Source of the DNA: Eledone cirrhosa
Lineage: Eukaryota
DNA: 64,000 bases
Direction of reading: 5' to 3'
Assembly (NCBI GenBank): GCA_964016885.1
Contig: OZ024742.1
Location: forward strand, 37,572,001 to 37,636,000
In this document: positions 33,597-63,499 of the stretch, one piece after another
How positions within the stretch are numbered: position 1 is the stretch's first letter
Layout: every line of letters begins with the position of its first letter
Notes under the pieces: generated by a model
Database searches by the model: none
The model's input: the letters and a program-made list of their open reading frames with translations, nothing else
What the model was told of the DNA's origin: nothing
Translations under genes and position numbers: made by a program

Positions 33597-34680
<1,084 letters not shown>

Positions 34681-40950: not shown

Positions 40951-42553
40951 TTTAACGAAGGGTTAAAAATGAAAAGTTAGAATGGTTATATGTAGTTATT
41001 AGAAATGATTATAACAAGAATAATAGTTGTAAATGTATAATAGGAATAGGTGTAATAACGAAAATATAAAGAATAAATGATTTTATTTTATTGGCCATGT
41101 TCGATATGCAGAAAAGGAACTGGCATAAATTCTATAAAATGCACACAATGCAGATCCTGGGTACACAAGAGATGTAGCGTGATAGCAGGCAAACTAACAG
41201 GTAGGGAGAAATATGTATGCAGCAGATGTACAGGGAAATTAGACAGTAGAAGTCGCATGATAGACACATTTTTCAAATGCAGGAGGGTGCTATAGAAGTT
41301 GTGGATAGCTTGTGGTACCTAGGAAATCAGATTAGCATGGGAGGAGGGTGTTCCGAGGCCATAGTATCTAGAATAAGGACTGGTTGGAAGAAGTTTAGGG
41401 AGCTGCTGACGAAGAAGCGTTTCTCCCTGCGTACGAAAGGCCGGTTGTATGATGCCTGTGTGAGGAGTGCGATGCTACATGGTAGTGAGACATGGGCAGC
41501 AACTGCAGAGGATATGCGACGGCTGGAGAGAAATGAGGCAAGCATGCTCCGTTGGATGTGCAGTGAAAATGTGTGTGAACGACCCAGCATGAATCTGTTG
41601 AGAGAGAAACTGTGTCTGAGAGGGATAGAATGTAGTGTATGGGAGAGGAGACTGAGGTGGTATGGACATGTGATGCGCATGGAGGATGACCGATGGGTGA
41701 AGAAGTGCCAGGAAATGCCAGTTAAGGAAGACATGGTAGAGGTAGACCACGAAAAACATGGGCGGAGGTGATGAGAACAGACCTCAGATCGTTGAAGCTC
41801 ATGGTGGAGATGACGAAGGACCGTGACGAGGGAGAGATGCTGTGCTGAATAAGACCCGTCCCACCCTTGCCAGCAGGGAAGAGCAGATGTAAAATGATGA
41901 TGATGATGATGATGATATAGTTTACTTCACGTGAATCAATTAAAAAGTACATATAAAACAGTTACCAAGAGTTGTTATTGTTTCTGATGTGAGGCTGTTG
42001 TAATCTGTTGTTGTTGTTGGTGTGAAAGCAGCGAGCAACAGATAATTGTTGTTGTTGGAATTTGGAGACCTTGGTAGTAGTTGTGTGACCGTGTTAGTAA
42101 AAGAGAGAGATATGGTATGTATATCTCGGAATGGTCTGTAGTAACTTTGAAACACTGTGGCCTGCAGACGGCGGTGAATCTTCCACATTTGTATTCTGTA
42201 GTAGTAGGGTTTCAATCGCTCTGGGTGTATCTGTAGACCTCATGGGGTCTGTTGAATAGTGGTGAATCTTTACATAGCTAGTTGTGTATCCTAGCGCTTC
42301 GATATCTCTGTGTCTGTAGACCCTTTGGGTCTATTGATAGCAGTAAATCCTTACATAGCTTGTTATAGGTGTAATGATCTGATGTATCTCCTATAGTGGG
42401 ATAATAGCACAGGCTTTATATAACTATCGCTTCCTGTCCCCCACCTTGAGGGGATAGTCAACAAATCAACCTGTCTGCACCAAAAGGGTGTTGACCCAGA
42501 ATTTAACCTTTAGGTATCACCCAAAGTTCAAGGCGCGGACAGATTTCGTTACA
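40951..42553 (-). mobile_element. Solo LTR (~780 bp) carrying a nested RTE fragment
   Basis: Termini TTTAACGAA...TTCGTTACA (imperfect inverted). The satellite TA tract has 4 extra bases, consistent with a TATA TSD. Minus-strand TATA-like motif at ~42415 and AATAAA at ~41082. Confidence 0.75.
41091..41916 (+). mobile_element. 5'-truncated RTE LINE with PHD-like finger and (GAT)n tail, frameshifted
   Basis: WPCSICRKG..CTQCRSWVHKRC..CSRC, YLG, KGRLYDACVRSAMLHGSETW, RRLRWYGHV. Confidence 0.92.
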
Positions 42554-43483
42554 TATATATCTGGTTTGTCCATGTATGGCTGGGTGTATTAACATTGTAT
42601 ATATACCTGGTCTGTCCATATATGGCTGGGTGTATTAACATTGTATATATATCTGGTTTGTCCATATATGGCTGGGTGTATTAACATTGTATATATACCT
42701 GGATCGTCCATATATGGCTGGGTGTATTAACATTGTATATAGACGTTGTTTATCCATATATGGCTGGGTGTATTAACATTGTATATATACCTGGTTTATC
42801 CATATATGGCTGGGTGTATTAACATTGTATATATATACCAGGTTTATCCATGTAACAAACATACAAAAAAAAATGTGAAAAACACAACCTAACTCCAAAA
42901 GATGAAATAACAGGAGTAAAAATAAACATATCACGACCATTGCATCATCAATATATGATGCTAAGTAAGAATATGTGTGTACAAGTGTTGATATGTGTAT
43001 GTTTATCAGTGTGTTTCAGCTTTTTGTTGCATGTGTAATGTATCTGCATTTGTGAGTGTCATTTGGTGCATGTGTATTGGTTTGAACGTAGATGGGACAT
43101 TAGTGTGGGGCACAGTGGGGAAAGTAGATTAGATGAAGAAGGGCTGCACATTCAGTCCATAGGGGTGGGGGCAATATATGCAGAAAAAAATGAACTTCAG
43201 TTCCCTCAGGTGGCGCGAGTTCATGGGTCCAGTGCAGGATGCCAGGCCAAAGACTGTAGGGTGTCATGTGGAATAGCCGAGAGAGCGAAAATATTGGGCA
43301 ACAGGAGATGGGTTGCCAACATAGATGTCCCAAAGATGTTCAATGAATCTGTCAACAACACAAGTCAAATTATTTGAGTTAAGTCTGCTTCAGCTCTCAC
43401 TATTTTTCTTAAATAAATCAAACTAATAAAGAATATATATCATCATCATGGTTTAATGTACATCTTCCACGCTAGCATAGGTT

Positions 43484-43519
<36 letters not shown>

Positions 43520-44002
43520 TTATTTTATGTCTGCTTTTCATACTGGCATTGGTTGGTCGCTACTGCCTGAGTCAGTTCCTAACTGGAGTTACTGCTCTCC
43601 TAGAGAGGTGATTGAAATAGGTCTCGTTAATGCATTCCAAATGTTGGCATTGTTTCTACAGCGAGATGTCCTTCTTAACACATTACAGAATGTATTGATT
43701 ATATTTTGTCATAACAATTCTAAAGAGGTTGTTTTATCCATTGCAAGGTTAGAGAGAGTTTTTCACTGCATGAAGTCTTTGTCCTTTCAAAGTGAACATT
43801 ACTGAGAGATATTTGATTGAGAGTGATAGCCAAGAGTTGAAAGAGAAAAGAGTGAGAGAATAGATCTGAGTATGTAGGGGAAACATGAGTGATAGTATGG
43901 TAGGGAAACAGAGGAGTAGAGGTAGACACATGTTAATTGTTGGTAGTGGATTGGTAGAGTAGAAAACAGCATGAGCAATGTAATGGACTACCCATAGGGA
44001 TA

Positions 44003-46096
44003 GCGTGTGCAGCATCGGTGCCATGTAAGCAGAAAAAAAACCACCCCAAAAGTGCAATTTGGGCAACTTCAGCGGTCCGACTTGCCAGGAAAGAACGTCG
44101 GAACGCTGAACGGGAATATAAACTGCATAAATCAGATGCCAACAGAAAAATGCGGAATAAATCTTCTAACCATCTCAAGCAAGTGACAAAGAAGGCAGTG
44201 CTTGAATTTGAACAGTGCATAGCAACCAATACTGACGGTAAGGTGTTCTGGAAATATGTTCATTCAAAGCAGATACCTCACTCTCAAGTTGGTCCTCTTC
44301 GCAATCCCCACACAAGCCAGATCACTGATGATCCCAAAGAATGCGCAGAACTCATTGCTGAGTGCTATGCAAGTATATTTACTGTTGAAAACCAGAATGT
44401 ACCATCTCTAACATCAAATTCCATAACAACTATGGAATTTACACCTGCAATGTTGCGACGTCACCTTAAGAATAAGCGCAACTATGCCTCCCCTGGTCTT
44501 GATGGTGTTACATACCTGCTTCTCAAACATGGCGGGTATTTCCTTTTGCGCCAGCTTTCTTTCTTACAATACCGTCTCAACAATGGTGCTACTCCGGAGC
44601 AGTGGAAAACTGCCAGTATCATTCCCCTGTTCAAAAAGGGCAACAGCATGTCACCTGTCAACTATCGTCCAGTCAGTCTTACTAGCTGTATGGCCAAACT
44701 GATGGAATCCTGTGTCAGAGAAACACTTTGGAACTTCTGGAGCTCTCACAGCCTCATCCGGCCCTCACAGTTTGGATTTATCCCTAACTCCAGCTGCTCT
44801 GATCAGCTTATCTAGTTCCTTGAAGACATCACCCGGATCACTGGCAGCGGCTCATGGGTGGATGTTGTTTACCTTGACTTTGCTAAGGCTTTTAATTCTG
44901 TGCCACACAAAAGACTTATGGCAAAACTCTCTGCAATGGGTGTGAGGGATGATCTTTTCGACTGGTTGAAATCCTTCATTCTCAGCCGAAAAAAAGTAAT
45001 CACGGTCTACGACAGCATTCTTCACCATATGAGATGTCATCTGGTGTACCACAGGGATCTGTTCTTGGTCCCCTTTTGTTTGTGGCATATATTAATGACA
45101 TAGATGCCAACTTACAGAATGCCACGGTACTAAAATATGCAGATGACATCAAGCTGTACCTTGAAATCAAAAGGACTGATCCTGAAATCTACAACTCTTT
45201 CCTACAATCAGACCTGGACACAATGCAGCAATGGATCACAGACTGGCAACTGAAGCTGGCTGTGGACAAGTGTACTACTATGCATTTTGGGAGGAAAAAT
45301 CCAGCGTCCCCATACTCCCTCCACAACACTGATATCAAGAAGTCCTCTTGTGAACGTGACCTGGGCATTACTGTCAGCAGCGATTTGCGTTGGACAAAGC
45401 ATGTCTCTAAGATTGTCAAGAAGGCCGAGGGTGTCTTGGCATCACTCAGCAAGACCTTTGTTAGCCGCTCTCCAGCCATCTATTTAAAACTGTATACAGC
45501 TATGGAACGACCACACTTGGAATTCGCATCATCAGTCTGGAACCCCTATCTTGCTCAGAACATTGACCTGGAAACTGTTCAGAGACGTGCAACCAAGCGC
45601 ATACCCTCCATCAGACACCTACCATACTCTGAACGCCTTGCTTCCCTGGGCATGGATTCATTGAAGCTCCGACGTCTGGCAATGGACTTGGTGAATACCC
45701 ACAAAGTTATTAACCATCTCGCCAATTGCAACCCTGAGCACCTTTTTGATCTCCATGTGTCTAACACACGTGGACATGCCTACAAAATCAGAAAACAGCA
45801 CAGCTCCCATGACTTTCGTAGACATTTATTCACGCTCAGTGTTGCTGAAGCATGGAACAAACTGCCTGCATCAGTTGTTAGCTGCCGAGACACTGTGTCC
45901 TTTAAGACACTCATGCTTCCCGAAATACGCCAAAACTACACCTGATGTACCCCTTCCATACACATGCACACGTGTGTATCATGACTCATGCACTATTCAT
46001 TTTCCTGATGTTTGTACATTACGCTATGTACTATACCTACAGTTTTTGATGAGTTGTAGTGCACCTGAGCACTGTACACAATATTTCATTATTATT
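44003..46096 (+). mobile_element. 5'-truncated CR1/L2-group LINE (RT with stop and frameshifts)
   Basis: SPGLDG, PLFKKG..NYRPVSLTS, QFGF, YLDFAKAFNSVPH, SGVPQGSVLGPLLF, YADDIK, RGHAYK..WNKLP; (ATT)n tail; empty site gggataagtc at 11401 and 33027. Confidence 0.95.
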
Positions 46097-46664
46097 ATAA
46101 GTCATAGGATGAAATAGCTTTTCTAGATATTTTATTAAAATTTTAAGTCAGACACAAAAGTACATAAGTCACAAAACCCAACTGTCAACTGGTCATAATA
46201 TCAAAATAGTGACAAATGTCTGTGTAACCAGACTGGGTATTAAAGTTAATCCAAAATAAATTGCAGAAGATCACATATTTATATAACATTAAATAAATTA
46301 TTACAACATTTCATTTGTTATTTACACAAATTTTCTACCAGATATATGGTGACAATGACACATGTAAATCTCCATTCAGTTCCATTACCATATTGTAGAA
46401 CATTTTGTAATGACAGTTAAAGAAAATCTCCAGCTCATGTTTGTCTGAGATAAAACAACAAAGATAATGTAGTTTGAAAACACAGCCTTTCTCCATTTAT
46501 TTGTTCAGTTCTGAAAGATTTCATTGCATCAATAGTCTCACAGCAATTCTATTGTGGCATGAAATAATAATTTGTACAAATTCTTCATTATTTTCTTGTT
46601 TATGTGTCATGGAGCATTGCAATGAGTAAAACTACCATCCTTAGTGGATATTTCTTCATGAATA

Positions 46665-47834
46665 TCAGGATTTCTTACCCGTATGAACATTTTTATGACG
46701 AGTTAAACTGTGATTATCAGCATATGATTTACCACAAATATCACAACTATATGGTCTCTCACCTGTGTGACTACGTATATGAAGTGTTAAATGACCTCTC
46801 TGAGAGAATGTTTTACCACAGGTATCACAGTGAAATGGCTTTTCACCTGTGTGAACACGTACATGTTGAGTTAAATGACTATTCTGAGAGAATGTTTTAC
46901 CACAGGTATCACAATGATATGGTTTCTCACCAGTGTGAGTACGTATATGTCCAGTTAGTCTATCACTGGTAGAGAATGTTTTTGTACAGATTTCACAGTG
47001 GTATGGTTTATCTCCAGTGTGAACTTGTACATGATTGGCCAAACTATTACATCCAGAGAAAGTTTTACCACAGATATCGCAACGGTATGGTTTCTCACCA
47101 CTGTGAATACGTTTGTGGTTAGTCATGTTTCCTCTCGCAGAGAACGTTTTCCCACAGATATCACAACGATGTGGTCTTTCCCATGTGTGAACAGATCTGT
47201 GAACCTTTAAATAAGAACTTCGCGAGAATGTTTTACCACAAACACCACATTGATATGGTTTTTCTCCTGTATGAATACGTATATGATGAGTTAAACTATT
47301 AAGCTGTGTGAATGATTTCCCACAGGTATCACAATGATATGGTTTCTCACCTGAGTGAGTATTTTTGTGTCTACTCAAATGTCCAAATTGTGTGAATCTT
47401 CTACCACAAATATCACAGTGGTAAGGCTTTTCATCAGTATGAATACGTTTGTGATTCGTTAAAGTACTGCTTTCTGAAAAGGTTTTGTCACAGATATCAC
47501 ATCGGTGTGCTTTCTTGCTTCTGTGAATACGTTTATGTCTAGTTAAATACAAATTCTGAGAGAATACTTTACCACAGATTAAACATTTAAAATCCTTCTG
47601 ATCTGACTGAACACCTTTAGAATAAGAACGGTTTTTACCAGCTGTTTTGCTGTGCATTTTAGAATACTTCAGCTTTAAGCTTGTAAGAATTACATTATAT
47701 TGTGTGAATGTTTTCTTATGGATGTCAAAGTGATATGATTTCTTCTGTGTATCTCCACATGTCTCATGAGATATGTCGCTAGGTTCAGACTTAATTTCAT
47801 CACAAACTGGTCTTTCACACACTTTATCCTCCAT
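46665..47834 (-). CDS. C2H2 zinc-finger protein, 11 fingers (copy 4, 389 aa)
   Basis: Intact ORF paralogous to copies 1, 2 and 5. Confidence 0.95.
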   Translation of the reverse strand: MEDKVCERPVCDEIKSEPSDISHETCGDTQKKSYHFDIHKKTFTQYNVILTSLKLKYSKMHSKTAGKNRSYSKGVQSDQKDFKCLICGKVFSQNLYLTRHKRIHRSKKAHRCDICDKTFSESSTLTNHKRIHTDEKPYHCDICGRRFTQFGHLSRHKNTHSGEKPYHCDTCGKSFTQLNSLTHHIRIHTGEKPYQCGVCGKTFSRSSYLKVHRSVHTWERPHRCDICGKTFSARGNMTNHKRIHSGEKPYRCDICGKTFSGCNSLANHVQVHTGDKPYHCEICTKTFSTSDRLTGHIRTHTGEKPYHCDTCGKTFSQNSHLTQHVRVHTGEKPFHCDTCGKTFSQRGHLTLHIRSHTGERPYSCDICGKSYADNHSLTRHKNVHTGKKS

Positions 47835-48927
47835 AATTTTCTTACAAGTATTCTAAAAATGTTTGTTATTTTCAAATGTTTAACGCAGAATAATAAATTC
47901 TCTGAAACTTCCCAACAGAATCTTCATGTTAAATGTCTCTATAATCTCAATTAAAATCAAAGTTACAGAGAACAGTTACTTGTATTCTCGATAATGTCAG
48001 TTTTCTGGTTTCAAAACCTGACAAATTTCTTGATATATCTTGAATCAACAATTACCATCTGAATGTCACCACAAACTCTGAAAAAAAATATAAGGTAGAG
48101 AAAAGTTAACATAAAGATTATTAGTGATGGAGGAACTTGATTAGAGACATTGAATGTTATATTAACAAAGATTAGAAAATATCTACAGAAGAAAGACACA
48201 ACAGTATGGATATGTAGTGTAAATATATAATGTGATGTGAGGATGATGGACTTTAGAATGATGAAAATAATGGGATACACTGAGGGAGAAGGAAAAGCAG
48301 AATGTTTTTAGTGTGAGTGTATATGATCAGATACCTCAGGTACTCCATATGCATGAAAAATTGTAGTTCAGTGAAATGAAAATGAAATTTACAGCTCCCA
48401 CCTATGTAGGTTTAGCTGGTCTCCTATAGGTTGTATCTCAGAAGAAGTTTCTTGAGTGGTTTAATGATAGGGGCTCCAGGTCTATCATGAAAAGTAACAT
48501 GAAATAAAGTGTCCTGCTCAAGAATAAAACATCCTGCCCAGTCCAATAATTGAATCCATGACACCCAAACCACTCAGTGAGTATTAACATATCAATGTAA
48601 AGAGCATTAAATATGCTATCACTAAATATATTAGCTAATGACTAATATAATTTTAACTGTTTCGGCAATGCTTGCTAAAAGATAGGAAAAAATGAGTATA
48701 TTTTAATTAAAATGCAATAAAATATTGGCTTGTTAATTGGATCTTGAATTCTATATGTTGTTTATGTTTCATATATTCTTTAGTTTTATTATTTTGTTAA
48801 TCCAGTGAATGTTCAGGTTAATGCTAAAAATATTCAGATGACATACTGGCCATACAGGCATTTGGTCAATACTCAGTGGATGATTCGGTTGGGCACAAAA
48901 AAGATTGAAATGAAAATGAGACATGCC

Positions 48928-50037
48928 TTAACTGAGCAGTGAAAACATATCTCTTGCTCTCAGTAGTCTGTTAGTCAGTGTCACTTTAACAAAAGAAGTG
49001 AAAACACACGTCTGGTCCTTAACATTCAGTTGGTTAATGTCGCCTTAGCACTGAAAATATGAGCTCAGCGTTCAGGTATCTATTAGTGTCACTTTAGATG
49101 AGCAGTAAAAACACATCTAGCCCTCAGCATTGAAAACACACCCCGGGTCTTCAGCAGTTAGTTAGTCAGTATTGCGTTAGCTGAGCAGTGAAAAAACAGC
49201 TTTCACCCTAAGCAATTTTTTAACCAGTGTCACCTTAGTCAAACAATCAAAACTCACCTCTGGCATTCAACAGCCTGTTAATCAGTGTTGCTTTAGCTGA
49301 GCAATGAAAACACACTTCTGGTTCTGAGCACTTTGTTAGTCAGTGTTACGTTAGCTGAGCAGTGGAAACTCACCTCTGGCCCTTGGCAGTCTGGTAGCTA
49401 ATGTTGCCTTAGCTGAGAAATGAAAATGCAACTCTGGCACTGTGCAGCCAAAGTCTGTAAGTCGGTGTTGCTTTACCTGAGCAATGAAAACTTATGTCTA
49501 GCCCTCAAAAGTCAGCAGCCTGTTAATTAAAGTCCCATTAGCTGAGCAGTGAAAACATGACTCTGGCCCTCAGCAGGCTTTTAGCGAGAGTTACCTTAGC
49601 TGAGAAGTAAAAACACACTTCTGGCCTACAACTGTCTGTTAATCAGTGATGCTTTAGCTGAAAGTTGAAAACACTCCTAGCACTAAACAATTAGTGCAGG
49701 TATGAGCAACCTTTTTTCGAGTAGTGGGTTGCATAGGATGTGGCTCATCATAAGGCAAACTGCACCACTAAAGAATCCATTTTGAAATTAGGTGTGTAGG
49801 TGTATCACTCACAAAGCCAAACGGGTCGCAGTTTGGCCATGACTGTATTAGTGTATACTTAACTGAGCAGTGAAAACATGCACCAGAGCCTCAGCTGTCT
49901 ATTAGTCAGCGTCACATTAGCTGAGCAGTGAAAACACACCTCCGTCTCTCAGTATTCAGCAGCCTGTTAGTAAGTGTCACATCAGATGAGCACTGCAAAC
50001 ACGCCTGGTCGTCAGTAGTTTGTTAATCAGTGTCATC
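48928..50037. repeat. 58-bp diverged tandem repeat (cassette C)
   Basis: Paralog of 14249-15385. Confidence 0.88.
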
Positions 50038-51058
50038 CAGATAACCAGGTGGAGAGATACCTCAGATGATTTTATCACAGCATATCCACTAACTTTTCTG
50101 GTGACCAGTGTACAGCTAGCCTTTCTTTCATTGTATGGTTTCTGAATTAGGAACAAAGTCAGCAATTTAATGGGAGGGGAAAGTCGATTATATCGACTCC
50201 GGTAGTTGACTGGCATCGAGTCGAAAGGATGAAAGGCAAAGTTAACCTCAGCAGGATTATAACATATAAGAATAAAATGAGTTTGTGCTGTGTTCTGGAG
50301 AATTTATGTCAACGAACAGTTACTATTGGAACTAACATTCTGAATTTTAATTAACGTATCACTATCGTGAATTATCATGATACCGCTGTTCTGATGTTTT
50401 GTATGTGTAATTAAAGTATATATAATCAAACACGTTGAACACAAGATAAACACACGTGTGAGCGTGTGTTTGTGCAAACACACGAAGATATTGTCAAAAG
50501 ATTAACTATGGGGGTCTAAAATATAGGAAGATTCATTACAAACTGATTTGGTTGAAATGAAACTGTTGTCAAAGAAAGAATAACAATGGAGGGGAACATT
50601 AGGACACTATGTCACAATTAATAACAAATACATCAATGTTACCATGAATAGTGGTGTTAAATAGTTTATAAAATTCAACATTACTGGTGTTTACTTTTCA
50701 ATAGAGATTAAAACAATGTAAAGAACAGCTCACCATCAATACATACTGTGGGTTGTTGTTACAGTAGAGATGTTTACACTAGAAATACTAAAACATCATA
50801 TTTAACAACATATCAAATTACTGTGTATCTTTCTCGCTATTTAGTTAAATAATGTTAAGAGATAAATGGATTTGTGGATATTTACTCACATTAGGTATCT
50901 CTCATGTGCTTATTTAACGAATAATACTGACGACACAGAAGAAATTTAGTCATATACATTGCTACAGACATAACTAATGCATCGAATCATCAGCCGTTTT
51001 TTCGTATAAGACTTTTAATTCTCTTACCTAACGGTGTACCGAACGAAGTACTGTAGGC

Positions 51059-51965
51059 CAGTGCTTCTCAAACTACCTGATGTGGCGGACGGGCATTTTT
51101 TTTTCAATGTGCCACGTACTGCTAATATTTCGTAGTAATATTAATTTATACCGGAAATGATATATATAATGAATATAATAAAAGTTGACAATTTTTTTAT
51201 CTTCTATTTATTCTGTAAACAATAATACAATATCAAAACATATAAAAAAAATAATAAGCAGTTTATTAACACAAAAATAAAAAAAATTATATAACCTTAA
51301 TCTTTACTAGTATGAAAGGTGAACCTGCTTCTTTTTTTACTGTTAAGAATTAATCAGGCTATTTTAAGCGTGAGAAAACAGTTACACTAAGGGAAGAAAT
51401 AATTTATTTGAGGATACGGGCCGAAGTAAAGGGAGCATGGTTTTGAATGGAGACTAAAGTATCATTCGGCGGCATTACAATATCACAAATATACTACATT
51501 TACTTACATAATCTCTACCACAGCCGGTAAGTACCACGCGTCACCACCGGCCAACTGATAAGTTGTTTACTTACTGCAGTAGGTCGTTTAGTCACCGAAA
51601 CTGATGCTGCACGGTCCATTTTCTATTATTTGACTTTCTTTCTTTCTTTCTTCATAGAAAACTATGATATATTATCAACTTATATTTTTACTATCAGCTT
51701 AATTTACCTATTATTGTCATATAATTTTCACTCCCAGTTTTCATTGCATCAGGACAAATTACTGAAACTAGCAGTCACAGCCTAAAATTTCCTTGAAATT
51801 CCTTAGATTTTACCAATTCCTCAAATCATTCCCTCGACACTGGCCGCGTACCAGTAGCTGATGGCTCGCGTACCGCTACCGGTAGCTGGTGGCTCGCGTA
51901 TCGGTAGCTGATGGCTCGCGTACCGGTAGCTGATGGCTCGCGAACCACCACTTTGAGTAGCACTG
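51059..51965 (-). mobile_element. Non-autonomous hAT (Charlie-like) DNA transposon, 907 bp
   Basis: TIRs cagtgcttctcaaa / tttgagtagcactg; perfect 8-bp TSD CTGTAGGC; minus-strand remnant KKQVHLSY* (~51308-51334) resembling a Charlie transposase C-terminus; subterminal ~22-bp repeats ggtagctgatggctcgcgtacc. Confidence 0.9.
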
Positions 51966-52041
51966 CTGTAGGCAACATCTCTTTTATATACTACATTTAT
52001 GAAGAATGTCATCATTGGGTCAATAACAATATATATATATA

Positions 52042-52252
52042 TACGATATATTAACAAATGGAAACTATATTTATAAAACCATATTTATTTCATTATACAT
52101 ATTTCAAGGACATCAAGTTAAATTATGGTGTGCTTTCATCAGATAAAATATAATATAGAGCAGTTTTATAAATAAATATTGACATACCCTTAAAGAATGC
52201 GACCATTTCTGTTGGAAGCTCCCGGATAGTGGGGTTATATCCGGGAGCTTCC
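52042..52252. mobile_element. Truncated copy of the foldback element (left arm, loop, 15 bp of right arm)
   Basis: Matches 62893-63106, then switches to cassette-start sequence. Confidence 0.85.
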
Positions 52253-52354
52253 GTTTTATCTCGCTCTCAACTTCCTGTTCCCGTCCGGTAGATTTAACAC
52301 TAATTGTCTGTTTTAAAAAAATGTCACCATTTATATTTAAACCTAAATTATTTT

Positions 52355-53506
52355 AAGGTCAGAGGCCAAGTGGCCAGGGAACCCTTACGGTTAAAGGATT
52401 TAGTATCGTTCTATCAACCTTCACCCGTGCCCAGTACCCCAACCATATTCCAAGGGAGCTAACTTGTAACCCTCTATCTCCCCTCAATCGTCGGATTCAG
52501 TCGAAATTAGCCTTATTCACCCAACCACTCCCTAACAGCTAGCTTGTCTCTAACGCCACCGTCCTCACATTGCCAGTGTTAATGCTGAGTACTCCCCCCC
52601 TCTAGCTCTGTCGTTAACCTAATTCTATCGTCGACCTCACTGATGTTGCCAATTCACCGCAAAAAACTGTGCTCACTGCTTCCGTACCAATTGATATTTG
52701 AAGACCCTTGAATGTCATTTGTGTAGCTTAAACTATCACAGGAGCTGTGTTGGCATTACTAAGGTTCAAGCTGAAAGTTTCTTAAACTGGACCTGTAACA
52801 AATGGCAATTCAGCAACAATTTACATTTGCAGGTCAGAACCTAGTTCTGACATTCAGATCTCTGTTGGGGATTTTGCTATTGCCCTCCAGTGCTTGTCTA
52901 AATTGAAATTCATCAACAGGATCCCAAAGGGAGCTTGGATCAGTTTCACCCGAGTTCTCTCCAAGCTGCTGAAAAACGTTTGCCTATCCAACATCTTGGA
53001 TTGGCAGAAACTATTCTTGTTCACCCTAGTCTCTCTCCACATGTCCAACACAAAATCTTGATCCCTCACATCTTCTCTAAAATGGCAGTTCATGTTGTTT
53101 GATTCAACCCGAACTATTGCTTATCTCAGGTTGCCAAATTCAATGAATTTGACATTAAAGGGGCTGTTAGCCTCCTCTCCTCTCTGTCATCCCTCGCCCA
53201 GTGCACTACTGATTCACTCAACCGGCTGATAGTGAAACATCTTCTGGTTCCTCCGATCCACCAGGTTATTTACAACCTGTCTTCACCCCAGGAAGGTGAT
53301 CATATCCTTTCCTGTGGATTCTGGTGCAGGGGTTGATCTTCAACGATCTCAGCACCTCAAAGATGATGACTCCTTGAGCCCTTGAAGAACCTCACCCAAT
53401 TCATCAACCTATTCTCATCCGAGAATGTCCTCCCTTATATTCACCCTGTTCCTTGGGGCTAAACTGTTTGGCTTCACAAAGCTCTATGGTGACCTCCACC
53501 CCATCT
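52355..53506 (+). mobile_element. CRE-clade fragment (cassette D)
   Basis: Paralog of 7696-8860, extending to LFLGAKLFGFTKLYGDLHPI. Confidence 0.7.
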
Positions 53507-54379
53507 TTCGATTTAAGTTGGCTAACCTCAAGCAACTTTTAAAAAGCCTCGAAGCCATTGAGCCTCATCAAGGTTTTTTATTCTTAGGAATTATTTGTCA
53601 ATTCCTAAGTTGTTATATTTCCTCAGATTTATATACTATTAGGACAAAAATAAATACCAGATAACACACAGACATCTTTGTTGTCTTCATATAAACTAAA
53701 TTTTACTGTTTATTTTACATTGTCTTATCCTTCTTAACACAAATCATTTTCTACATTATACACAATGGTTCAGCTGTTGGGCCCTGACTCTCCCTCCCTA
53801 ATATAGTTACACTCTACTATCCCAAGTATCGAGTAATCTGCTGAACAATGGTATTACTAGTTTAAAACTGCTAAAACACTGACCTCTTTCTCTCTCTCTC
53901 TTTCTCTCTCCATATATATATATATATAATAAAATGTTGTAGTTTACTTGAAACATTGTGTATAGTGTATAATGTAGAAAATAATTTGGTTAAAGAAGGA
54001 TAGGACAATGTGAAATGGACAGTAAAATTTAGTTAAATGAAGGCAATGAAGATGTTTGTGTGATACCTGGTATTCATTTTCTACATTATACACTATACAC
54101 AATGCTTCAAGCAAACTACAACATATATATAATTTTAAAAAAGGACAGATATAATATCAATAGTTTTATTTGTCTCATGCTTGAAAGGAAAAGGAAAGTT
54201 CACCATATTAGACATTAGTCCTTCATTAGAAGTAGTAGAAACACAAAGATGAGGTTCACAGATAGAAGATAAAAAGGAGGGGGGGGGGCATGTGAGTGTG
54301 TGTTTTTGCATTTAATTCTTTGTGTGTTTGTGTTGTTGGAGTGATGCATGTATGCCTGAGTGTATTAACATTGTATATA

Positions 54380-55987
54380 TTTAACGAAGGGTTAAAAATG
54401 AAAAGTTAGAATGGTTATATGTAGTTATTAGAAATGATTATAACAAGAATAATAGTTGTAAAGGTATAATAGGAATAGGTGTAATAACGAAAATATAAAG
54501 AATAAATGATTTTATTTTATTGGCCATGTTCGATATGCAGAAAAGGGACTGGCATAAATTCTATAAAATGCACACAATGCAGATCCTGGGTACACAAGAG
54601 ATGTAGCGTGATAGCAGGCAAACTAACAGGTAGGGAGAAATATGTATGCAGTAGATGTACAGGGAAATTAGACAGTAGAAGTCGCATTGATAGACACATT
54701 TTTCAAATGCAGGAGGGTGCTATAGAAGTGGTGGATAGCTTTTGGTACCTAGGAAATCAGAGTAGCATGAGAGGAGGGTGTTCCGGGGCCATAGTATCTA
54801 GAATAAGGACTGGTTGGAAGAAGTTTAGGGAGCTGCTGACGAAGAAGCGTTTCTCCCTGCGTACGAAAGGCCGGTTGTATGATGCCTGTGTGAGGAGTAA
54901 GATGCTGCATGGTAGTGAGACATGGGCAGCAACTGCAGAGGATATGCGACGGCTGGAGAGAAATGAGGCAAGCATGCTCCGTTGGATGTGCAGTGAAAAT
55001 GTGTGTGAACGACCCAGCATGAATGTGTTGAGAGAGAAACTGTGTCTGAGAGGGATAGAATGTAGTGTATGGGAGAGGAGACTGAGGTGGTATGGACATG
55101 TGATGCGCATGGAGGATGACCGATGGGTGAAGAAGTGCCAGGAAATGCCAGTTGAAGGAAGACGTGGTAGAGGTAGACCACGAAAAACATGGGCGGAGGT
55201 GATGAGAACAGACCTCAGATCGTTGAAGCTCATGGTGGAGATGACGAAGGACCGTGACGAGGGAGAGATGCTGTGCTGAATAAGACCCGTCCCACCCTTG
55301 CCAGCAGGGAAGAGCAGATGTAAAATGATGATGATGATGATGATGATATAGTTTACTTCACGTGAATCAATTAAAAAGTACATATAAAACAGTTACCAAG
55401 AGTTGTTATTGTTTCTGATGTGAGGCTGTTGTAATCTGTTGTTGTTGTTGGTGTGAAAGCAGCGAGCAACAGATAATTGTTGTTGTTGTTGGAATTTGGA
55501 GACCTTGGTAGTAGTTGTGTGACCGTGTTAGTAAAAGAGAGAGATATGGTATGTATATCTCGGAATGGTCTGTAGTAACTTTGAAACACTGTGGCCTGCA
55601 GACGGCGGTGAATCTTCCACATTTGTATTCTGTAGTAGTAGGGTTTCAATCGCTCTGGGTGTATCTGTAGACCTCATGGGGTCTGTTGAATAGTGGTGAA
55701 TCTTTACATAGCTAGTTGTGTATCCTAGCGCTTCGATATCTCTGTGTCTGTAGACCCTTTGGGTCTATTGATAGCAGTAAATCCTTACATAGCTTGTTAT
55801 AGGTGTAATGATCCGATGTATCTCCTATAGTGGGATAATAGCACAGGCTTTATATAACTATCGCTTCCTGTCCCCCACCTTGAGGGGATAGTCAACAAAT
55901 CAACCTGTCTGCACCAAAAGGGTGTTGACCCAGAATTTAACCTTTAGGTATCACCCAAAGTTCAAGGCGCGGACAGATTTCGTTACA
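54380..55987 (-). mobile_element. Solo LTR with nested RTE (duplicate of 40951-42553)
   Basis: Same termini and same insertion point in the first satellite unit. Confidence 0.75.
54520..55348 (+). mobile_element. 5'-truncated RTE LINE; frame still open (ORF 54506-55279)
   Basis: Same motifs as 41091-41916 plus in-frame GRRGRGRPRKTW; (GAT)n tail. Confidence 0.92.
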
Positions 55988-56840
55988 TATATATCTGGTT
56001 TGTCCATGTATGGCTGGGTGTATTAACATTGTATATATACCTGGTCTGTCCATATATGGCTGGGTGTATTAACATTGTATATATATCTGGTTTGTCCATA
56101 TATGGCTGGGTGTATTAACATTGTATATATACCTGGATCGTCCATATATGGCTGGGTGTATTAACATTGTATATAGACGTTGTTTATCCATATATGGCTG
56201 GGTGTATTAACATTGTATATATACCTGGTTTGTCCATATATGGCTGGGTGTATTAACATTGTATATATACCTGGTTTATCCATATATGGCTGGGTGTATT
56301 AACATTGTATATAAATCTGGTTTGTCCATATATGGCTGGGTGTATTAACATTGTATATATACCTGGTTTATCCATATATGGCTGGGTGTATTAACATTGT
56401 ATATATACCTGGTCTGTCCATATATGGCTGGGTGTATTAACATTGTATATATACCTGGTTTATCCATATATGGCTGGGTGTATTAACATTGTATATATAT
56501 CTGGTTTGTCCATATATGGCTGGGTGTATTAACATTGTATATATACCTGGTCTGTCCATATATGGCTGGGTGTATTAACATTGTATATATATCTGGTTTG
56601 TCCATATATGGCTGGGTGTATTAACATTGTATATATACCTGGTCTGTCCATATATGGCTGGGTGTATTAACATTGTATATAGATGTTGTTTATCCATATA
56701 TGGCTGGGTGTATTAACATTGTATATAGATGTTGTTTATCCATATATGGCTGGGTGTATTAACATTGTATATAGACCTGGTTTATCCATATATGGCTGGG
56801 TGTATTAACATTGTATATATATACCAGGTTTATCCATGTA
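55988..56840. repeat. 46-bp satellite array 4, about 18 units (plus partial unit 54347-54379)
   Basis: Same unit; almost all are the ccatatatgg variant. Confidence 0.97.
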
Positions 56841-57523
56841 ACAAACATATAAAAAAAAATGTGAAAAACACAACCTAACTCCAAAAGATGAAATAACAGG
56901 AGTAAAAATAAACATATCACGACCATTGCATCATCAATATATGATGCTAAGTAAGAATATGTGTGTACAAGTGTTGATATGTGTATGTTTATCAGTGTGT
57001 TTTAGCTTTTTGTTGTGTGTAATGTATCTGCATTTGTGAGTGTCATTTGGTGCATGTGTATTGGTTTGAACATAGATGGGACATTAGTGTGGGGCACAGT
57101 GGGGAAAGTAGATTAGATGAAGAAGGGCTGCGCATTCAGTCCATAGGGGTGGGGGCAATATATGCAGAAAAAAATGAACTTCAGTTCCCTCAGGTGGCGC
57201 GAGTTCATGGGTCCAGTGCAGGATGCCAGGCCAAAGACTGTTCCATTATCATATTGTAGAACATTTTGTAATGACAGTTAAAGAAAATCTCCAGCTCATG
57301 TTTGTCTGAGATAAAACAACAAAGATAATGTAGTTTGAAAACACAGCCTTTCTCCATTTATTTGTTCAGTTTTGAAAGATTTCATTGCATCAATAGTCTC
57401 ACAGTAATTCTATTGTGGCATGAAATAATAATTTGTACAAATTCTTCATTATTTTCTTGTTAGTGTCATGGAGCATTGCAATGGGTCAAACTACCACCCT
57501 TAGTGGATATTTCTTCATGAATA

Positions 57524-58693
57524 TCAGGATTTCTTACCCGTGTGAACATTTTTATGACGAGTTAAACTGTGATTATCAGCATATGATTTACCACAAATAT
57601 CACAACTATATGGTCTCTCACCTGTGTGACTACGTATGTGAAGTGTTAAATGACCTCTCTGAGAGAATGTTTTACCACAGGTATCACAGTGAAATGGTTT
57701 TTCACCTGTGTGAACACGTACATGTTGAGTTAAATGACTATTCTGTGAGAATGTTTTACCACAGGTATTACAATGGTATGGTTTCTCACCAGTGTGAGTA
57801 CGTATATGTCCAGTTAGTCTATCACTGGTAGAGAATGTTTTTGTACAGATATCACAGTGGTATGGTTTATCCCCAGTGTGAACTTGTACATGATTGGCTA
57901 AACTATTACATCCAGAGAAAGTTTTACCACAGCTATCGCAACGGTATGGTTTCTCACCACTGTGAATACGTTTGTGGTTAGTCATGTTTCCTCTCCCAGA
58001 GAACGTTTTCCCACAGATATCACAACGATGTGGTCTTTCCCTTGTGTGAACAGATCTGTGAACCTTTAAATAAGAACTTCGTGAGAATGTTTTACCACAA
58101 ACACCACACTGATATGGTTTTTCTCCTGTATGAATACGTATATGATGAGTTAAACTATTAAGCTGTGTGAATGATTTCCCACAGGTATCACAATGATATG
58201 GTTTCTCACCTGAGTGAGTATTTTTGTGTCTACTCAAATGTCCAAATTGTGTGAATCTTCTACCACAAATATCACAGTGGTAAGGCTTTTCATCAGTATG
58301 AATACGTTTGTGATTCGTTAAAGTACTGCTTTCTGAAAAGGTTTTGTCACAGATATCACATCTGTGTGCTTTTTTGCTTCTGTGAATACGTTTATGTCTA
58401 GTTAAATACGAATTCTGAGAGAATACTTTACCACAGATTAAACATTTAAAATCCTTCTGATCTGACTGAACACCTTTAGAATAAGAACGGTTTTTACCAG
58501 CTGTTTTGCTGTGCATTTTAGAATACTTCAGCTTTAAGCTTGTAAGAAGTACATTATATTGTGTGAATGTTTTCTTATGGATGTTAAAGTGATATGATTT
58601 CTTCTGTGTATCTCCACATGTCTCATGAGATATGTCGCTAGGTTCAGACTTAATTTCATCACAAACTGGTCTTTCACACACTTTATCCTCCAT
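57524..58693 (-). CDS. C2H2 zinc-finger protein, 11 fingers (copy 5, 389 aa)
   Basis: Intact ORF paralogous to the other copies. Confidence 0.95.
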   Translation of the reverse strand: MEDKVCERPVCDEIKSEPSDISHETCGDTQKKSYHFNIHKKTFTQYNVLLTSLKLKYSKMHSKTAGKNRSYSKGVQSDQKDFKCLICGKVFSQNSYLTRHKRIHRSKKAHRCDICDKTFSESSTLTNHKRIHTDEKPYHCDICGRRFTQFGHLSRHKNTHSGEKPYHCDTCGKSFTQLNSLTHHIRIHTGEKPYQCGVCGKTFSRSSYLKVHRSVHTRERPHRCDICGKTFSGRGNMTNHKRIHSGEKPYRCDSCGKTFSGCNSLANHVQVHTGDKPYHCDICTKTFSTSDRLTGHIRTHTGEKPYHCNTCGKTFSQNSHLTQHVRVHTGEKPFHCDTCGKTFSQRGHLTLHIRSHTGERPYSCDICGKSYADNHSLTRHKNVHTGKKS

Positions 58694-59787
58694 AATTTTC
58701 TTACAAATATTCTAAAAATGTTTGTTATTTTCAAATGTTTAACGCAGAATAATAAATTCTCTGAAACTTCCCAACAGAATCTTCATGTTAAATGTCTCTA
58801 TAATCTCAATTAAAATCAAAGTTACAGAGAACAGTTACTTGTATTCTCGATAATGTCAGTTTTCTGGTTTCAAACCCTGACAAATTTCTTGATATATCTT
58901 GAATCAACAATTACCATCTGAATGTCACCACAAACTCTGAAAAAAAAATATAAGGTAGAGAAAAGTTAACATAAAGATTATTAGTGATGGAGGAACTTGA
59001 TTAGAGACATTGAATGTTATATTAACAAAGATTAGAAAATATCTACAGAAGAAAGACACAACAGTATGGATATGTAGTGTAAATATATAATGTGATGTGA
59101 GGATGATGGACTTTAGAATGATGAAAATAATGGGATACACTGAGGGAGAAGGAAAAGCAGAATGTTTTTAGTGTGAGTGTATATGATCAGATACCTCAGG
59201 TACTCCATATGCATGAAAAATTGTAGTTCAGTGAAATGAAAATGAAATTTACAGCTCCCACCTATGTAGGTTTAGCTGGTCTCCTATAGGTTGTATCTCA
59301 GAAGAAGTTTCTTGAGTGGTTTAATGATAGGGGCTCCAGGTCTATCATGAAAAGTAACATGAAATAAAGTGTCCTGCTCAAGAATAAAACATCCTGCCCA
59401 GTCCAATAATTGAATCCATGACACCCAAACCACTCAGTGAGTATTAACATATCAATGTAAAGAGCATTAAATATGCTATCACTAAATATATTAGCTAATG
59501 ACTAATATAATTTTAACTGTTTCGGCAATGCTTGCTAAAAGATAGGAAAAAATGAGTATATTTTAATTAAAATGCAATAAAATATTGGCTTGTTAATTGG
59601 ATCTTGAATTCTATATGTTGTTTATGTTTCATATATTCTTTAGTTTTATTATTTTGTTAATCCAGTGAATGTTCAGGTTAATGCTAAAAATATTCAGATG
59701 ACATACTGGCCATACAGGCATTTGGTCAATACTCAGTGGATGATTCGGTTGGGCACAAAAAAGATTGAAATGAAAATGAGACATACC

Positions 59788-60897
59788 TTAACTGAGCAGT
59801 GAAAACATATCTCTTGCTCTCAGTAGTCTGTTAGTCAGTGTCACTTTAACAAAAGAAGTGAAAACACACGTCTGGTCCTTAACATTCAGTTGGTTAATGT
59901 CGCCTTAGCACTGAAAATATGAGCTCAGCGTTCAGGTATCTATTAGTGTCACTTTAGATGAGCAGTAAAAACACATCTAGCCCTCAGCATTGAAAACACA
60001 CCCCGGGTCTTCAGCAGTTAGTTAGTCAGTATTGCGTTAGCTGAGCAGTGAAAAAACAGCTTTCACCCTAAGCAATTTTTTAACCAGTGTCACCTTAGTC
60101 AAACAATCAAAACTCACCTCTGGCATTCAACAGCCTGTTAATCAGTGTTGCTTTAGCTGAGCAATGAAAACACACTTCTGGTTCTGAGCACTTTGTTAGT
60201 CAGTGTTACGTTAGCTGAGCAGTGGAAACTCACCTCTGGCCCTTGGCAGTCTGGTAGCTAATGTTGCCTTAGCTGAGAAATGAAAATGCAACTCTGGCAC
60301 TGTGCAGCCAAAGTCTGTAAGTCGGTGTTGCTTTACCTGAGCAATGAAAACTTATGTCTAGCCCTCAAAAGTCAGCAGCCTGTTAATTAAAGTCCCATTA
60401 GCTGAGCAGTGAAAACATGACTCTGGCCCTCAGCAGGCTTTTAGCGAGAGTTACCTTAGCTGAGAAGTAAAAACACACTTCTGGCCTACAACTGTCTGTT
60501 AATCAGTGATGCTTTAGCTGAAAGTTGAAAACACTCCTAGCACTAAACAATTAGTGCAGGTATGAGCAACCTTTTTTCGAGTAGTGGGTTGCATAGGATG
60601 TGGCTCATCATAAGGCAAACTGCACCACTAAAGAATCCATTTTGAAATTAGGTGTGTAGGTGTATCACTCACAAAGCCAAACGGGTCGCAGTTTGGCCAT
60701 GACTGTATTAGTGTATACTTAACTGAGCAGTGAAAACATGCACCAGAGCCTCAGCTGTCTATTAGTCAGCGTCACATTAGCTGAGCAGTGAAAACACACC
60801 TCCGTCTCTCAGTATTCAGCAGCCTGTTAGTAAGTGTCACATCAGATGAGCACTGCAAACACGCCTGGTCGTCAGTAGTTTGTTAATCAGTGTCATC
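59788..60897. repeat. 58-bp diverged tandem repeat (cassette D)
   Basis: Almost identical to 48928-50037. Confidence 0.88.
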
Positions 60898-61913
60898 CAG
60901 ATAACCAGGTGGCGAGATACTTCAGATGATTTTATCACAGCATATCCACTAACTTTTCTGGTGACCAGTGTACAGCTAGCCTTTCTTTCATTGTATGGTT
61001 TCTGAATTAGGAACAAAGTCAGCAATTTAATGGGAGGGGAAAGTCGATTATATCGACTCCGGTAGTTGACTGGCATCGAGTCGAAAGGATGAAAGGCAAA
61101 GTTAACCTCAGCAGGATTATAACATATAAGAATAAAATGAGTCTGTGCTGTGTTCTGGAGAATTTATGTCAACGAACAGTTACTATTGGAACTAACTGAA
61201 TTTTAATTAACGTATCACTATCGTGAATTATCATGATACCGCTGTTCTGATGTTTTGTATGTGTAATTAAAGTATATATAATCAAACACATTGAACACAA
61301 GATAAACACACGTGTGAGCGTGTGTTTGTGCAAACACACGAAGATATTGTCAAAAGATTAACTATGGGGGTCTAAAATATAGGAAGATTCATTACAAACT
61401 GATTTGGTTGAAATGAAACTGTTGTCAAAGAAAGAATAACAATGGAGGGGAACATTAGGACACTATGTCACAATTAATAACAAATACATCAATGTTACCA
61501 TGAATAGTGGTGTTAAATAGTTTATAAAATTCAACATTACTGGTGTTTACTTTTCAATAGAGATTAAAACAATGTAAAGAACAGCTCACCATCAATACAT
61601 ACTGTGGGTTGTTGTTACAGTAGAGATGTTTACACTAGAAATACTAAAACATCATATTTAACAACATATCAAATTACTGTGTATCTTTCTCGCTATTTAG
61701 TTAAATAATGTTAAGAGATAAATGGATTTGTGGATATTTACTCACATTAGGTATCTCTCATGTGCTTATTTAACGAATAATACTGACGACACAGAAGAAA
61801 TTTAGTCATATACATTGCTACAGACATAACTAATGCATCGAATCATCAGCCGTTTTTCGTATAAGACTTTTAATTCTCTTACCTAACGGTGTACCGAACG
61901 AAGTACTGTAGGC

Positions 61914-62776
61914 CAGTGCTTCTCAAACTACCTGATGTGGCGGACGGGCATTTTTTTTTCAATGTGCCACGTACTGCTAATATTTCGTAGTAATATTAAT
62001 TTATACCGGAAATGATATATATAATGAATATAATAAAAGTTGACAATTTTTTTATCTTCTATTTATTCTGTAAACAATAATACAATATCAAAACATATAA
62101 AAAAAATAATAAGCAGTTTATTAACACAAAAATAAAAAAAATTATATAACCTTAATCTTTACTAGTATGAAAGGTGAACCTGCTTCTTTTTTTACTGTTA
62201 AGAATTAATCAGGCTATTTTAAGCGTGAGAAAACAGTTACACTAAGGGAAGAAATAATTTATTTGAGGATACGGGCCGAAGTAAAGGGAGCATGGTTTTG
62301 AATGGAGACTAAAGTATCATTCGGCGGCATTACAATATCACAAATATACTACATTTACTTACATAATCTCTACCACAGCCGGTAAGTACCACGCGTCACC
62401 ACCGGCCAACTGATAAGTTGTTTACTTACTGCAGTAGGTCGTTTAGTCACCGAAACTGATGCTGCACGGTCCATTTTCTATTATTTGACTTTCTTTCTTT
62501 CTTTCTTCATAGAAAACTATGATATATTATCAACTTATATTTTTACTATCAGCTTAATTTACCTATTATTGTCATATAATTTTCACTCCCAGTTTTCATT
62601 GCATCAGGACAAATTACTGAAACTAGCAGTCACAGCCTAAAATTTCCTTGAAATTCCTTAGATTTTACCAATTCCTCAAATCATTCCTTAGCATTGCCTC
62701 GAAACTGGCCCTGTACCGGTAGCTGATGGCTCGCGTACCGGCACCGGTCAGCGAACCACCACTTTGAGTAGCACTG
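61914..62776 (-). mobile_element. Non-autonomous Charlie-like hAT, 863 bp (duplicate of 51059-51965)
   Basis: Same TIRs and CTGTAGGC TSD; different subterminal repeat block. Confidence 0.9.
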
Positions 62777-62835
62777 CTGTAGGCAACATCTCTTTTACAT
62801 ACTACATTTATGAAGAATGTCATCATTGGGTCAAT

Positions 62836-62839
<4 letters not shown>

Positions 62840-62894
<55 letters not shown>
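62840..62894. repeat. (TA)n microsatellite
   Basis: About 27 TA units versus about 7 at the paralogous site ~52029-52043. Confidence 0.95.
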
Positions 62895-62895
<1 letters not shown>

Positions 62896-63282: not shown

Positions 63283-63384
63283 GTTTTACTCCAATAGTTT
63301 GTTGAGTGCTTTATATCAGTTATAAAAATATTTGCTTGTTGTATCCCAACAATTTAAATAGAACTTCTACATATATATATATAT

Positions 63385-63499
63385 ATAGGAACGAGTTGGA
63401 CCCCGACGGCTGAGCTCAACCGTTTCGACGGCTAATTCTGGACTGAATTAGCCGTCGAAACGGCTTGAGCTCAGCTGTCGGGGTCCTACTCGTTCCTAT
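63385..63499. mobile_element. GC-rich hairpin MITE-like element, ~54-bp arms, 6-bp loop
   Basis: ataggaacgagttggaccccgacggctgagctcaaccgtttcgacggctaattc-tggact-gaattagccgtcgaaacggcttgagctcagctgtcggggtcctactcgttcctat; flanked by TA, next to a (TA)n tract. Confidence 0.75.

What the first reader, a model, noticed from the sequence alone, without database searches (positions are those of the whole stretch)
52042..52275. Duplication breakpoint lies at the tip of a long hairpin
The intact 390-bp palindrome at 62893-63282 appears here as left arm, loop and only 15 bp of right arm. It then joins, via a 3-bp TCC microhomology (gagcttcc|gtttta), sequence homologous to 7593, 16552 and 39002 (tctccgttttagctcgctct). 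This is what cruciform cleavage or fork stalling with template switching would leave, suggesting the palindrome triggered the rearrangement joining cassettes C and D.
Basis: partly seen in the sequence, partly recalled or inferred. Interest (0 to 1): 0.7.

Follow-up and report, generated by a model that had tools for sequence, protein, structure and literature searches.

The report
Penelope hairpin tip ends gene duplication
A stump of a Penelope-type jumping gene sits in the DNA as a 390-base mirror repeat, and a second copy of it is cut off 12-15 bases past the mirror's centre at the seam of a repeated zinc-finger gene cassette; sibling mirror repeats elsewhere in the genome are broken near their centres far more often than unpaired copies, so the hairpin likely triggered this rearrangement, an example of a known kind of DNA fragility.

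Summary
The junction is real. 52042-52252 holds the left arm, a 9-nt spacer and 15 nt of the right arm of the palindrome at 62893-63282, then joins sequence shared with three other cassettes. Short contigs from 2 of 3 runs of one sample cross the junction without mismatch.

The palindrome is not a fold-back DNA transposon. It is a 5'-truncated Penelope-like retroelement with an inverted pLTR, a one-sided 90-nt tail and (TA)n flanks. Longer relatives carry the motifs of the Hydra clade.

The junction joins two sister 11-13 kb units of a C2H2 zinc-finger gene array. Among 56 other tight-hairpin copies, 17 of 112 arms break within 40 bp of the centre (12 at 10-20 bp), against 1 of 90 unpaired arms (p=3e-4). 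A hairpin-triggered event is therefore likely (about 0.8).

Still open: direct duplication versus an aborted conversion tract or a later deletion, and cleavage versus template switching. The 3-bp microhomology is weak evidence (6% by chance) and rests on an inferred ancestral base. This is a known phenomenon with a new example. The scan noted Penelope fold-backs on other DNA before.

The parts
52042..52228 (-). Inverted, untailed pLTR arm of a Penelope-like element (left arm of the hairpin; duplicate of 62893-63082)
   Evidence: 97.4% to the sense pLTR over 191 positions; same (TA)n site and left flank as 63k
52229..52237 (.). 9-nt spacer GTGGGGTTA, identical to 63083-63091
   Evidence: of the centres listed only these two loci have it
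52238..52252 (+). 15-nt stub of the direct pLTR arm; its last 3 nt (TCC, 52250-52252) are the putative microhomology
   Evidence: bridged by a short contig
52250..55986 (.). Y segment of the right-hand unit, sister of 39002-42552; the break lies inside an old dispersed repeat whose other copies run across this point
39002..52252 (.). Unit A (13,251 bp): Y, 46-bp satellite, spacer with an RT-bearing insertion, C2H2-ZF gene, upstream DNA, hAT-like repeat, half hairpin
52250..63106 (.). Unit B (10,857 bp): sister of unit A and last cassette of the array
   Evidence: no further Y copy downstream
46668..47852 (-). C2H2 zinc-finger ORF (395 aa stop to stop, 11 fingers) in unit A
57527..58711 (-). 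C2H2 zinc-finger ORF (395 aa, 11 fingers) in unit B
62893..63082 (-). Inverted untailed pLTR arm of the complete insertion
63092..63282 (+). Direct 5'-truncated pLTR arm; holds a hammerhead-like motif (CTGATGA 63182-63188, stem II, GAAA 63219-63222)
   Evidence: Rfam gave no hammerhead hit
63283..63372 (+). One-sided 90-nt tail of the Penelope-like insertion, followed by (TA)n

Best explanation
A Penelope-like retroelement stump forms a 390-bp inverted repeat beside the last zinc-finger cassette, and its hairpin tip was likely the place where the DNA broke or copying slipped, the free end likely being joined through about 3 matching bases to a point 11-13 kb upstream, which would have added one gene cassette in tandem. 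Step 1 (shown): the element inserted into (TA)n as an inverted arm, spacer, direct arm and tail. Step 2 (inferred from the family statistics and from known palindrome biology): the 97.9%-identical arms with a 9-nt spacer extrude as a hairpin or cruciform. Either a hairpin-capped end was opened 12-15 nt past the loop, or a nascent strand folded back on its GC-rich 15-bp stem and left the template; the two cannot be told apart here. Step 3 (junction shown, pathway inferred): the end was joined to the start of the Y segment by microhomology-type end joining or template switching. Step 4 (pattern shown, cause inferred): the interiors of the units were later homogenised (0-0.5% divergence over most of 4.7 kb) while DNA next to the junction kept 2-4.5% divergence.
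For: A before/after pair: the same site and spacer at 52k and 63k. A short contig bridges the junction at single-copy depth. Units A and B are sisters that begin and end at the junction: Y at 52250 shares derived characters with Y at 39002 from the junction onward, and the gene side is nearest to the last cassette. Family test: raw counts were 19 of 112 hairpin arms against 1 of 90 control arms broken 8-40 bp from the centre. After dropping 3 centre duplications and adding 1 missed break, it was 17 of 112 against 1 of 90, p=2.9e-4, and 12 of the 17 lie at 10-20 bp, like this junction. Beyond 40 bp the raw rates were alike (17 of 112 against 13 of 90), and arm divergence was similar (median 2.7% against 3.2%). 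Eight of the 17 are deletions that rejoin the same arm (8 of 112 against 0 of 90, p=0.009). Seven of the other 9 lack the dinucleotide run that follows 89 of 95 native ends, which points to loss after insertion. Breaks at palindrome centres joined with little homology are documented (PMC4255720, passages), as are 10-20 kb tandem duplications with microhomology that depend on polymerase theta (PMC7368036, passages).
Against: The family test shows that tips break; it does not show that this one did, and the rearrangements it counts are deletions or joins to unknown partners, not shown duplications. The curation was mine and not blind, and breaks under 8 bp were invisible to the pattern. The sample was 56 copies from the first 100 of 204 hits (contigs C1-C6), while the controls were the first 90 of 1399 hits (C1 only). 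Short 5' palindromes can arise at insertion in Penelope elements (PMC3846280, passages), and 2 of the 9 joins abut (TA)n. A microhomology of 3 bp or more arises by chance in 6.4% of local pairs, and the nearest sister reads TCG. There is no excess of mutations on the junction-bearing copy (7 against 7). The left breakpoint lies only ~190 bp past the end of the X homology block, which a plain tandem duplication does not explain. No other junction of the array involves this family.
Confidence: 0.5

Rival explanations
1. Aborted conversion tract. The cassette already existed as an ordinary unequal-crossover copy. A break near its X/Z boundary was repaired by invading the last cassette; synthesis ran 1.2 kb past the homology into the hairpin, was ejected just past the centre and was joined to Y. 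The hairpin still sets the breakpoint, but copy number did not change at this event.
For: It explains why the partner breakpoint is only ~190 bp beyond the end of X (38814 to 39002) and why only Z is missing. Near-identity of 47113-51832 with 57972-62687 (99.5%) shows that the two cassettes exchange sequence.
Against: It needs two events. The hairpin arm itself differs by 2-3% between the copies while the P region differs by 0%, so later homogenisation is needed as well.
Confidence: 0.2
2. A larger duplication with other ends came first, and a hairpin-initiated deletion later removed the right arm, the tail and the original junction.
For: Near-tip deletions are the common outcome in this family.
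Against: It needs two events, no remnant of the terminal flank is seen inside the array, and it does not explain the near-register of the breakpoints.
Confidence: 0.1
3. Coincidence. An ordinary microhomology-joined rearrangement happened to end near the centre of the repeat, and the hairpin played no part.
For: This is a single event picked after the fact among many junctions in the array, the microhomology is weak, and no other junction involves this family.
Against: The breakpoint falls in the 10-20 bp zone that holds 12 of 17 near-tip breaks, and that zone is almost empty in unpaired arms.
Confidence: 0.15
4. Retroelement-made duplication. An RNA started near the tip, ran leftwards through the gene and was reverse-transcribed back into its own locus by the element's enzyme.
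For: Many family copies end at this point of the pLTR. The inverted arm points into the gene on its coding strand. A Penelope element has been reported to move an intron-containing host gene (PMC3846280, passages).
Against: The copy includes the locus-specific spacer and 15 nt of the opposite arm, spans 11-13 kb of intergenic DNA and satellite, and has no flanking pLTR or target duplication at its other end.
Confidence: 0.03
5. Assembly or read fold-back artefact.
For: The only bridging data come from one sample, perhaps the source of the assembly, and X4 showed no bridging piece.
Against: A k-mer depth of 12-17 across the junction in two runs, private substitutions beside it, and the join is to non-inverted sequence.
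Confidence: 0.02

Closest known systems
Palindrome-centre rearrangements: human PATRR translocations (PMC4255720, passages) and the general account of hairpin and cruciform fragility (PMC7999016, passages)
   Same: A near-perfect palindrome of several hundred bp with a short spacer, a breakpoint at or near the centre, and a join with few shared bases
   Different: Here the palindrome is a retroelement insertion, the partner lies 11-13 kb away on the same chromosome in direct orientation, and the product is a fixed or polymorphic gene cassette rather than a translocation or an inverted duplication
Hydra clade of Penelope-like elements (PMC8557442, section 11 read)
   Same: RWR, DKT, YRDD, CxCX5C linker, C-terminal GIY-YIG-like region without the internal cysteine pair, CxxC and CxH motifs, (TA)n targeting, hammerhead-like motif, inverted pLTR and one-sided tail
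   Different: The tail is 90 nt rather than the 30-40 bp described for Penelope-like elements, the motif reads RWR rather than RWK, and no phylogenetic placement was done
Polymerase-theta-type tandem duplications (PMC7368036, passages)
   Same: Size of 10-20 kb, head-to-tail orientation and microhomology at the junction
   Different: Those were seen in BRCA1-deficient worms and not tied to a palindrome; no enzyme can be assigned here
Penelope-mediated host gene expansion in Adineta vaga (PMC3846280, passages)
   Same: A Penelope pLTR at the edge of a copied host gene, and palindromes at the inverted junction
   Different: There the gene was moved in trans between pLTRs with a target duplication; here the element appears to be a passive fragile site and the copy is in tandem

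Membership tests
EN+ Penelope-like elements | Single ORF with RT and C-terminal GIY-YIG endonuclease in family members | tested here: met
   Long copies that share the same arms carry RT (D..YY, YRDD) and IVY..YVG..R..H segments, broken by frameshifts or stops; 908 homologues at E<=1e-10. Identified by motif: Pfam gave no hit for the genome's own ORFs and only a weak RVT_1 hit (E=0.004) for one homologue; PDB gave 0 hits
EN+ Penelope-like elements | pLTRs in direct and inverted orientation, with a 5'-truncated inverted copy | tested here: met
   Direct pLTRs around the ORF in L085 and L086; inverted pairs 0.1-5 kb apart in others
EN+ Penelope-like elements | Tail on one end of the insertion | tested here: met
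   Most complete hairpin copies have one arm ending at position ~191 and the other at 281; the tail is 90 nt, longer than the 30-40 bp in PMC8557442
EN+ Penelope-like elements | Hammerhead ribozyme in the pLTR | tested here: inconclusive
   CTGATGA, stem II and GAAA on the sense strand; cores intact in 123 and 139 of 143 matched arms, with a pattern that favours intact cores. No Rfam hammerhead hit. Cleavage was not tested
Hydra clade of PLEs | RWK and DKT N-terminal motifs | tested here: met
   RWR (MWR in L079) and SDKT in the genome's own ORFs
Hydra clade of PLEs | CxCX5C linker, no CCHH, CxxC and CxH around the conserved E and N | tested here: met
   CxCX5C in 4 of 5 loci scanned, CxxC..E in 5 of 5 and N..CxH in 4 of 5; a single C between the GIY-like and YIG-like boxes
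Hydra clade of PLEs | Insertion into (TA)n | tested here: met
   89 of 95 native ends are followed by a dinucleotide run, mostly TA
Hydra clade of PLEs | Grouping with reference Hydra RTs in a tree | not tested
   No named reference sequences were in hand
MITE or foldback DNA transposon | Terminal inverted repeats define both ends and the parent encodes a transposase | tested here: not met
   The element has a one-sided tail, and its parents encode RT and endonuclease
Palindrome-mediated rearrangement | Near-perfect long arms with a short spacer present before the event | tested here: met
   191-bp arms, 97.9% alike, 9-nt spacer shared by both copies
Palindrome-mediated rearrangement | Breakpoints enriched at the centre | tested here: met
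   17 of 112 against 1 of 90 arms
Palindrome-mediated rearrangement | Hairpin or cruciform extrusion and breakage in cells | not testable with these tools
   Needs structure probing or break mapping
Microhomology-mediated tandem duplication | Junction microhomology above chance and one-step origin | tested here: inconclusive
   3 bp, P about 0.064; one-step origin cannot be separated from conversion or deletion with one haplotype

The most novel reading that the evidence does not exclude
Fold-back insertions of an abundant Penelope-like family act as self-made fragile sites across this genome, and they contribute recurrently to tandem duplication of host genes such as C2H2 zinc-finger cassettes. 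This would be a DNA-level route from Penelope elements to gene-family growth, distinct from RNA-mediated capture.
Probability: 0.2. Interest if true: 0.65.

Novelty: new member of a known kind. Interest (0 to 1): 0.38.

Why it matters
It is a clean before-and-after pair of a natural hairpin-tip rearrangement in an animal genome, at the edge of an extra intact zinc-finger ORF. The family provides a built-in control: the same sequence breaks near this point far more often when it is paired as a tight hairpin. More than a hundred such hairpins (204 pattern hits, about two per copy) make palindrome fragility measurable over evolutionary time in one genome. The mechanism class is known, so the value lies in the example and the census, not in a new principle.

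Tried and rejected
(1) MITE or long-TIR DNA transposon: this was my first reading, and I rejected it when longer copies showed RT and endonuclease ORFs. (2) The variable centres (33 distinct among 56 copies) as proof of tip nicking: not used as evidence, because Penelope self-priming at insertion can also make them (PMC3846280) and my pattern selected for centres at this position. (3) Error-prone repair synthesis next to the junction: rejected, 7 against 7 private substitutions. (4) A simple insertion into an ordinary cassette that rejoins Y downstream of the window: no Y copy in 78 kb downstream or elsewhere near the array. (6) Naming the protein by library: no Pfam hit for the genome's own ORFs, no PDB hit, and the protein atlas returned no result, so clade assignment rests on motifs. 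(7) Rfam found no hammerhead. (8) A first pattern for the hammerhead cores was mis-spaced and found 0; it was corrected. (9) The centre-break paper of Cunningham et al. 2003 could not be read and is not used as evidence. (10) L155-L157 were fetched but not analysed.

Full report
The observation. The window comes from a 3.0-Gb genome (G000, contig C3). At 52042-52252 it holds the left arm, the 9-nt spacer and 15 nt of the right arm of the palindrome at 62893-63282. From TCC at 52250-52252 it continues as the 'Y' segment found at 7593, 16551/2 and 39002. The spacer and the insertion site in (TA)n are the same at 52k and 63k, so the two are copies of one insertion and 63k shows the earlier state. 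The nearest Y sister (39002) reads TCG, while 7593 and 16551 read TCC. The 3-bp microhomology therefore depends on TCC being ancestral, and 3 bp or more would arise in 6.4% of random local pairs.

Is it real? Of four runs laid, X2 gave a 96-bp contig over 52212-52307 with no difference at depth 12.2. X3 gave an 85-bp contig over 52223-52307 at depth 17.5, with 30 letters on the left, one short of the tool's bridging rule. Nearby single-copy pieces had depth 13.7-22.6. X4 and X5 showed no bridging piece, and three RAD-seq runs had no cover. X2-X4 are one sample of unrecorded library type, possibly the source of the assembly. Separately, the sequence right of the junction has 7 private substitutions against 7 in its sister, which a chimera of two existing copies would not show.

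What the palindrome is. It belongs to a dispersed family (2161 first-look candidates; 1972 exact hits to a 26-nt arm-tip pattern). Many arm pairs lie 0.1-5 kb apart. [quoted passage not shown] The motifs RWR, SDKT, YRDD, CxCX5C, CxxC..E and N..CxH match the description of the Hydra clade of Penelope-like elements (PMC8557442; section 11 read, plus passages). The one-sided tail, the inverted 5'-truncated copy and (TA)n targeting (89 of 95 native ends) match the same paper and PMC11167929 (first two of four parts read). A hammerhead-like motif lies on the sense arm (compare PMC4209133, passages), but Rfam did not detect it. Pfam and PDB gave no useful hit for the genome's own ORFs, so the assignment rests on motifs and structure. 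The 390-bp palindrome is thus a minimal inverted-pLTR insertion, not a DNA transposon.

The array. The window holds five C2H2 zinc-finger cassettes on the minus strand. Four have open frames with 11-12 fingers and the one near 33.6-34.8 kb is broken. Three cassettes run X-Z-Y. The last two run X, a hAT-like repeat (298 candidates; the label is recalled from its terminal sequence) and then the hairpin. The last cassette continues into other DNA, with no Y copy downstream. Old dispersed relatives of Y run across the point where the junction cuts it, so the junction is the derived state. Y at 52250 is sister to Y at 39002, and the gene side of 46671-52252 is sister to 57530-63106. Units A (39002-52252, 13,251 bp) and B (52250-63106, 10,857 bp) therefore begin and end at this junction. 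Divergence is 0-0.5% over most of a 4.7-kb interior tract but 2-4.5% beside the junction; I infer later homogenisation that stopped at the non-homologous boundary.

Family test of tip fragility. One search found 204 hits for two arm tips within 30 nt of each other. The first 100 listed gave 58 places, and the 56 outside the window were examined. The controls were the first 90 of 1399 hits for an arm tip that continues inward; none had a partner within 30 nt. An automatic extension found 19 of 112 hairpin arms and 1 of 90 control arms ending 8-40 bp from the tip (p=8e-5). By eye I dropped three centre duplications (L118, L127, L130) and added L150, whose break at 33 shows. That gives 17 of 112 against 1 of 90, p=2.9e-4; the single control case is an insertion. 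Twelve of the 17 lie at 10-20 bp, as this junction does. Eight rejoin the same arm further out. Nine join other sequence, with no resumption of the arm within 0.7-1.5 kb, and 7 of those 9 lack a dinucleotide flank. Beyond 40 bp the raw rates were alike (17 of 112, 13 of 90; both include false stops in a low-complexity stretch), and the two sets are of similar age. Limits: the curation was not blind, breaks under 8 bp were invisible, the two sets come from different contigs, two arms of one copy are not independent, and some short 5' palindromes may form at insertion (PMC3846280, passages).

Mechanism. Shown: the insertion, its symmetry, the junction, the sister units and the enrichment of breaks near tips. 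Inferred: the repeat extruded as a hairpin or cruciform, and the end was joined by microhomology-type repair. Opening of a hairpin-capped end past the loop, and fold-back of a nascent strand on the 15-bp GC-rich stem (-17.9 kcal/mol), both predict left arm, loop and a short stub. Both routes to palindrome breakage are described in PMC7999016 (passages). I put hairpin involvement at about 0.8 in total: 0.5 for one-step tandem duplication, 0.2 for an aborted conversion tract and 0.1 for a deletion after a larger duplication. Chance takes 0.15, an RNA-templated copy 0.03 and artefact 0.02. The conversion model has one point in its favour: the partner breakpoint lies only ~190 bp past the end of the X block.

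Comparison and novelty. Breaks at palindrome centres with little homology are known from human PATRRs (PMC4255720, passages), and 10-20 kb tandem duplications with microhomology from BRCA1-deficient worms (PMC7368036, passages). Three searches for Penelope or transposon palindromes as duplication breakpoints (listings only) returned no paper whose title or abstract start describes this case; the library lacks most subscription journals. Earlier notes of this scan describe Penelope fold-backs in other genomes, one with a later flank duplication; none lay near this place. Verdict: a real, well-supported new example of a known kind, with a useful internal control. Interest 0.38.

Noticed in passing
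window 18472|18473 (equals 8953|9314 in the first cassette): A 360-bp near-symmetric deletion removes the interior of a second, 83%-identical inverted repeat (8926-9042 / 9228-9346) in one cassette, next to a 30-bp tandem duplication (18481-18542); a second hairpin-linked junction in the same array, from a different family
   Followed up: partly
window 18797-31848: 46-bp satellite of 284 copies; the same array has 14, 6 and 18 copies in the other cassettes
   Followed up: no
window 47113-51832 versus 57972-62687: 99.5% identical tract that ends short of the junction on both sides, where divergence rises to 2-4.5%; likely a conversion tract
   Followed up: partly
window 62893-63282: Both arms at 63k carry an extra ATAA unit that is absent from the 52k arm and from most family copies, and the 63k left arm has 4 private changes; arm-to-arm copying or slippage, not resolved
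   Followed up: no
family-wide, e.g. L048, L051, L063, L071; window equivalent 52228: Many copies end at the same base of the pLTR and abut (TA)n, and 40 of 56 hairpin centres have spacers of 1-6 nt at this point; may mark the 5' end of the element's RNA
   Followed up: partly
window 63385-63499: A second palindrome (115 bp, 91% self-match) in (TA)n right after the tail; related sequence flanks other family copies (L002, L004, L006)
   Followed up: no
window 43984-46098 and 41092-41916 / 54521-55347: RT-type insertions: a 2.1-kb RVT_1-bearing element only in unit A (unit B has a ~1-kb deletion over that site), and a second LINE-like element shared by units A and B
   Followed up: no
window ~33600-34790: One of the five zinc-finger copies has no long open frame; the other four are open
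   Followed up: no
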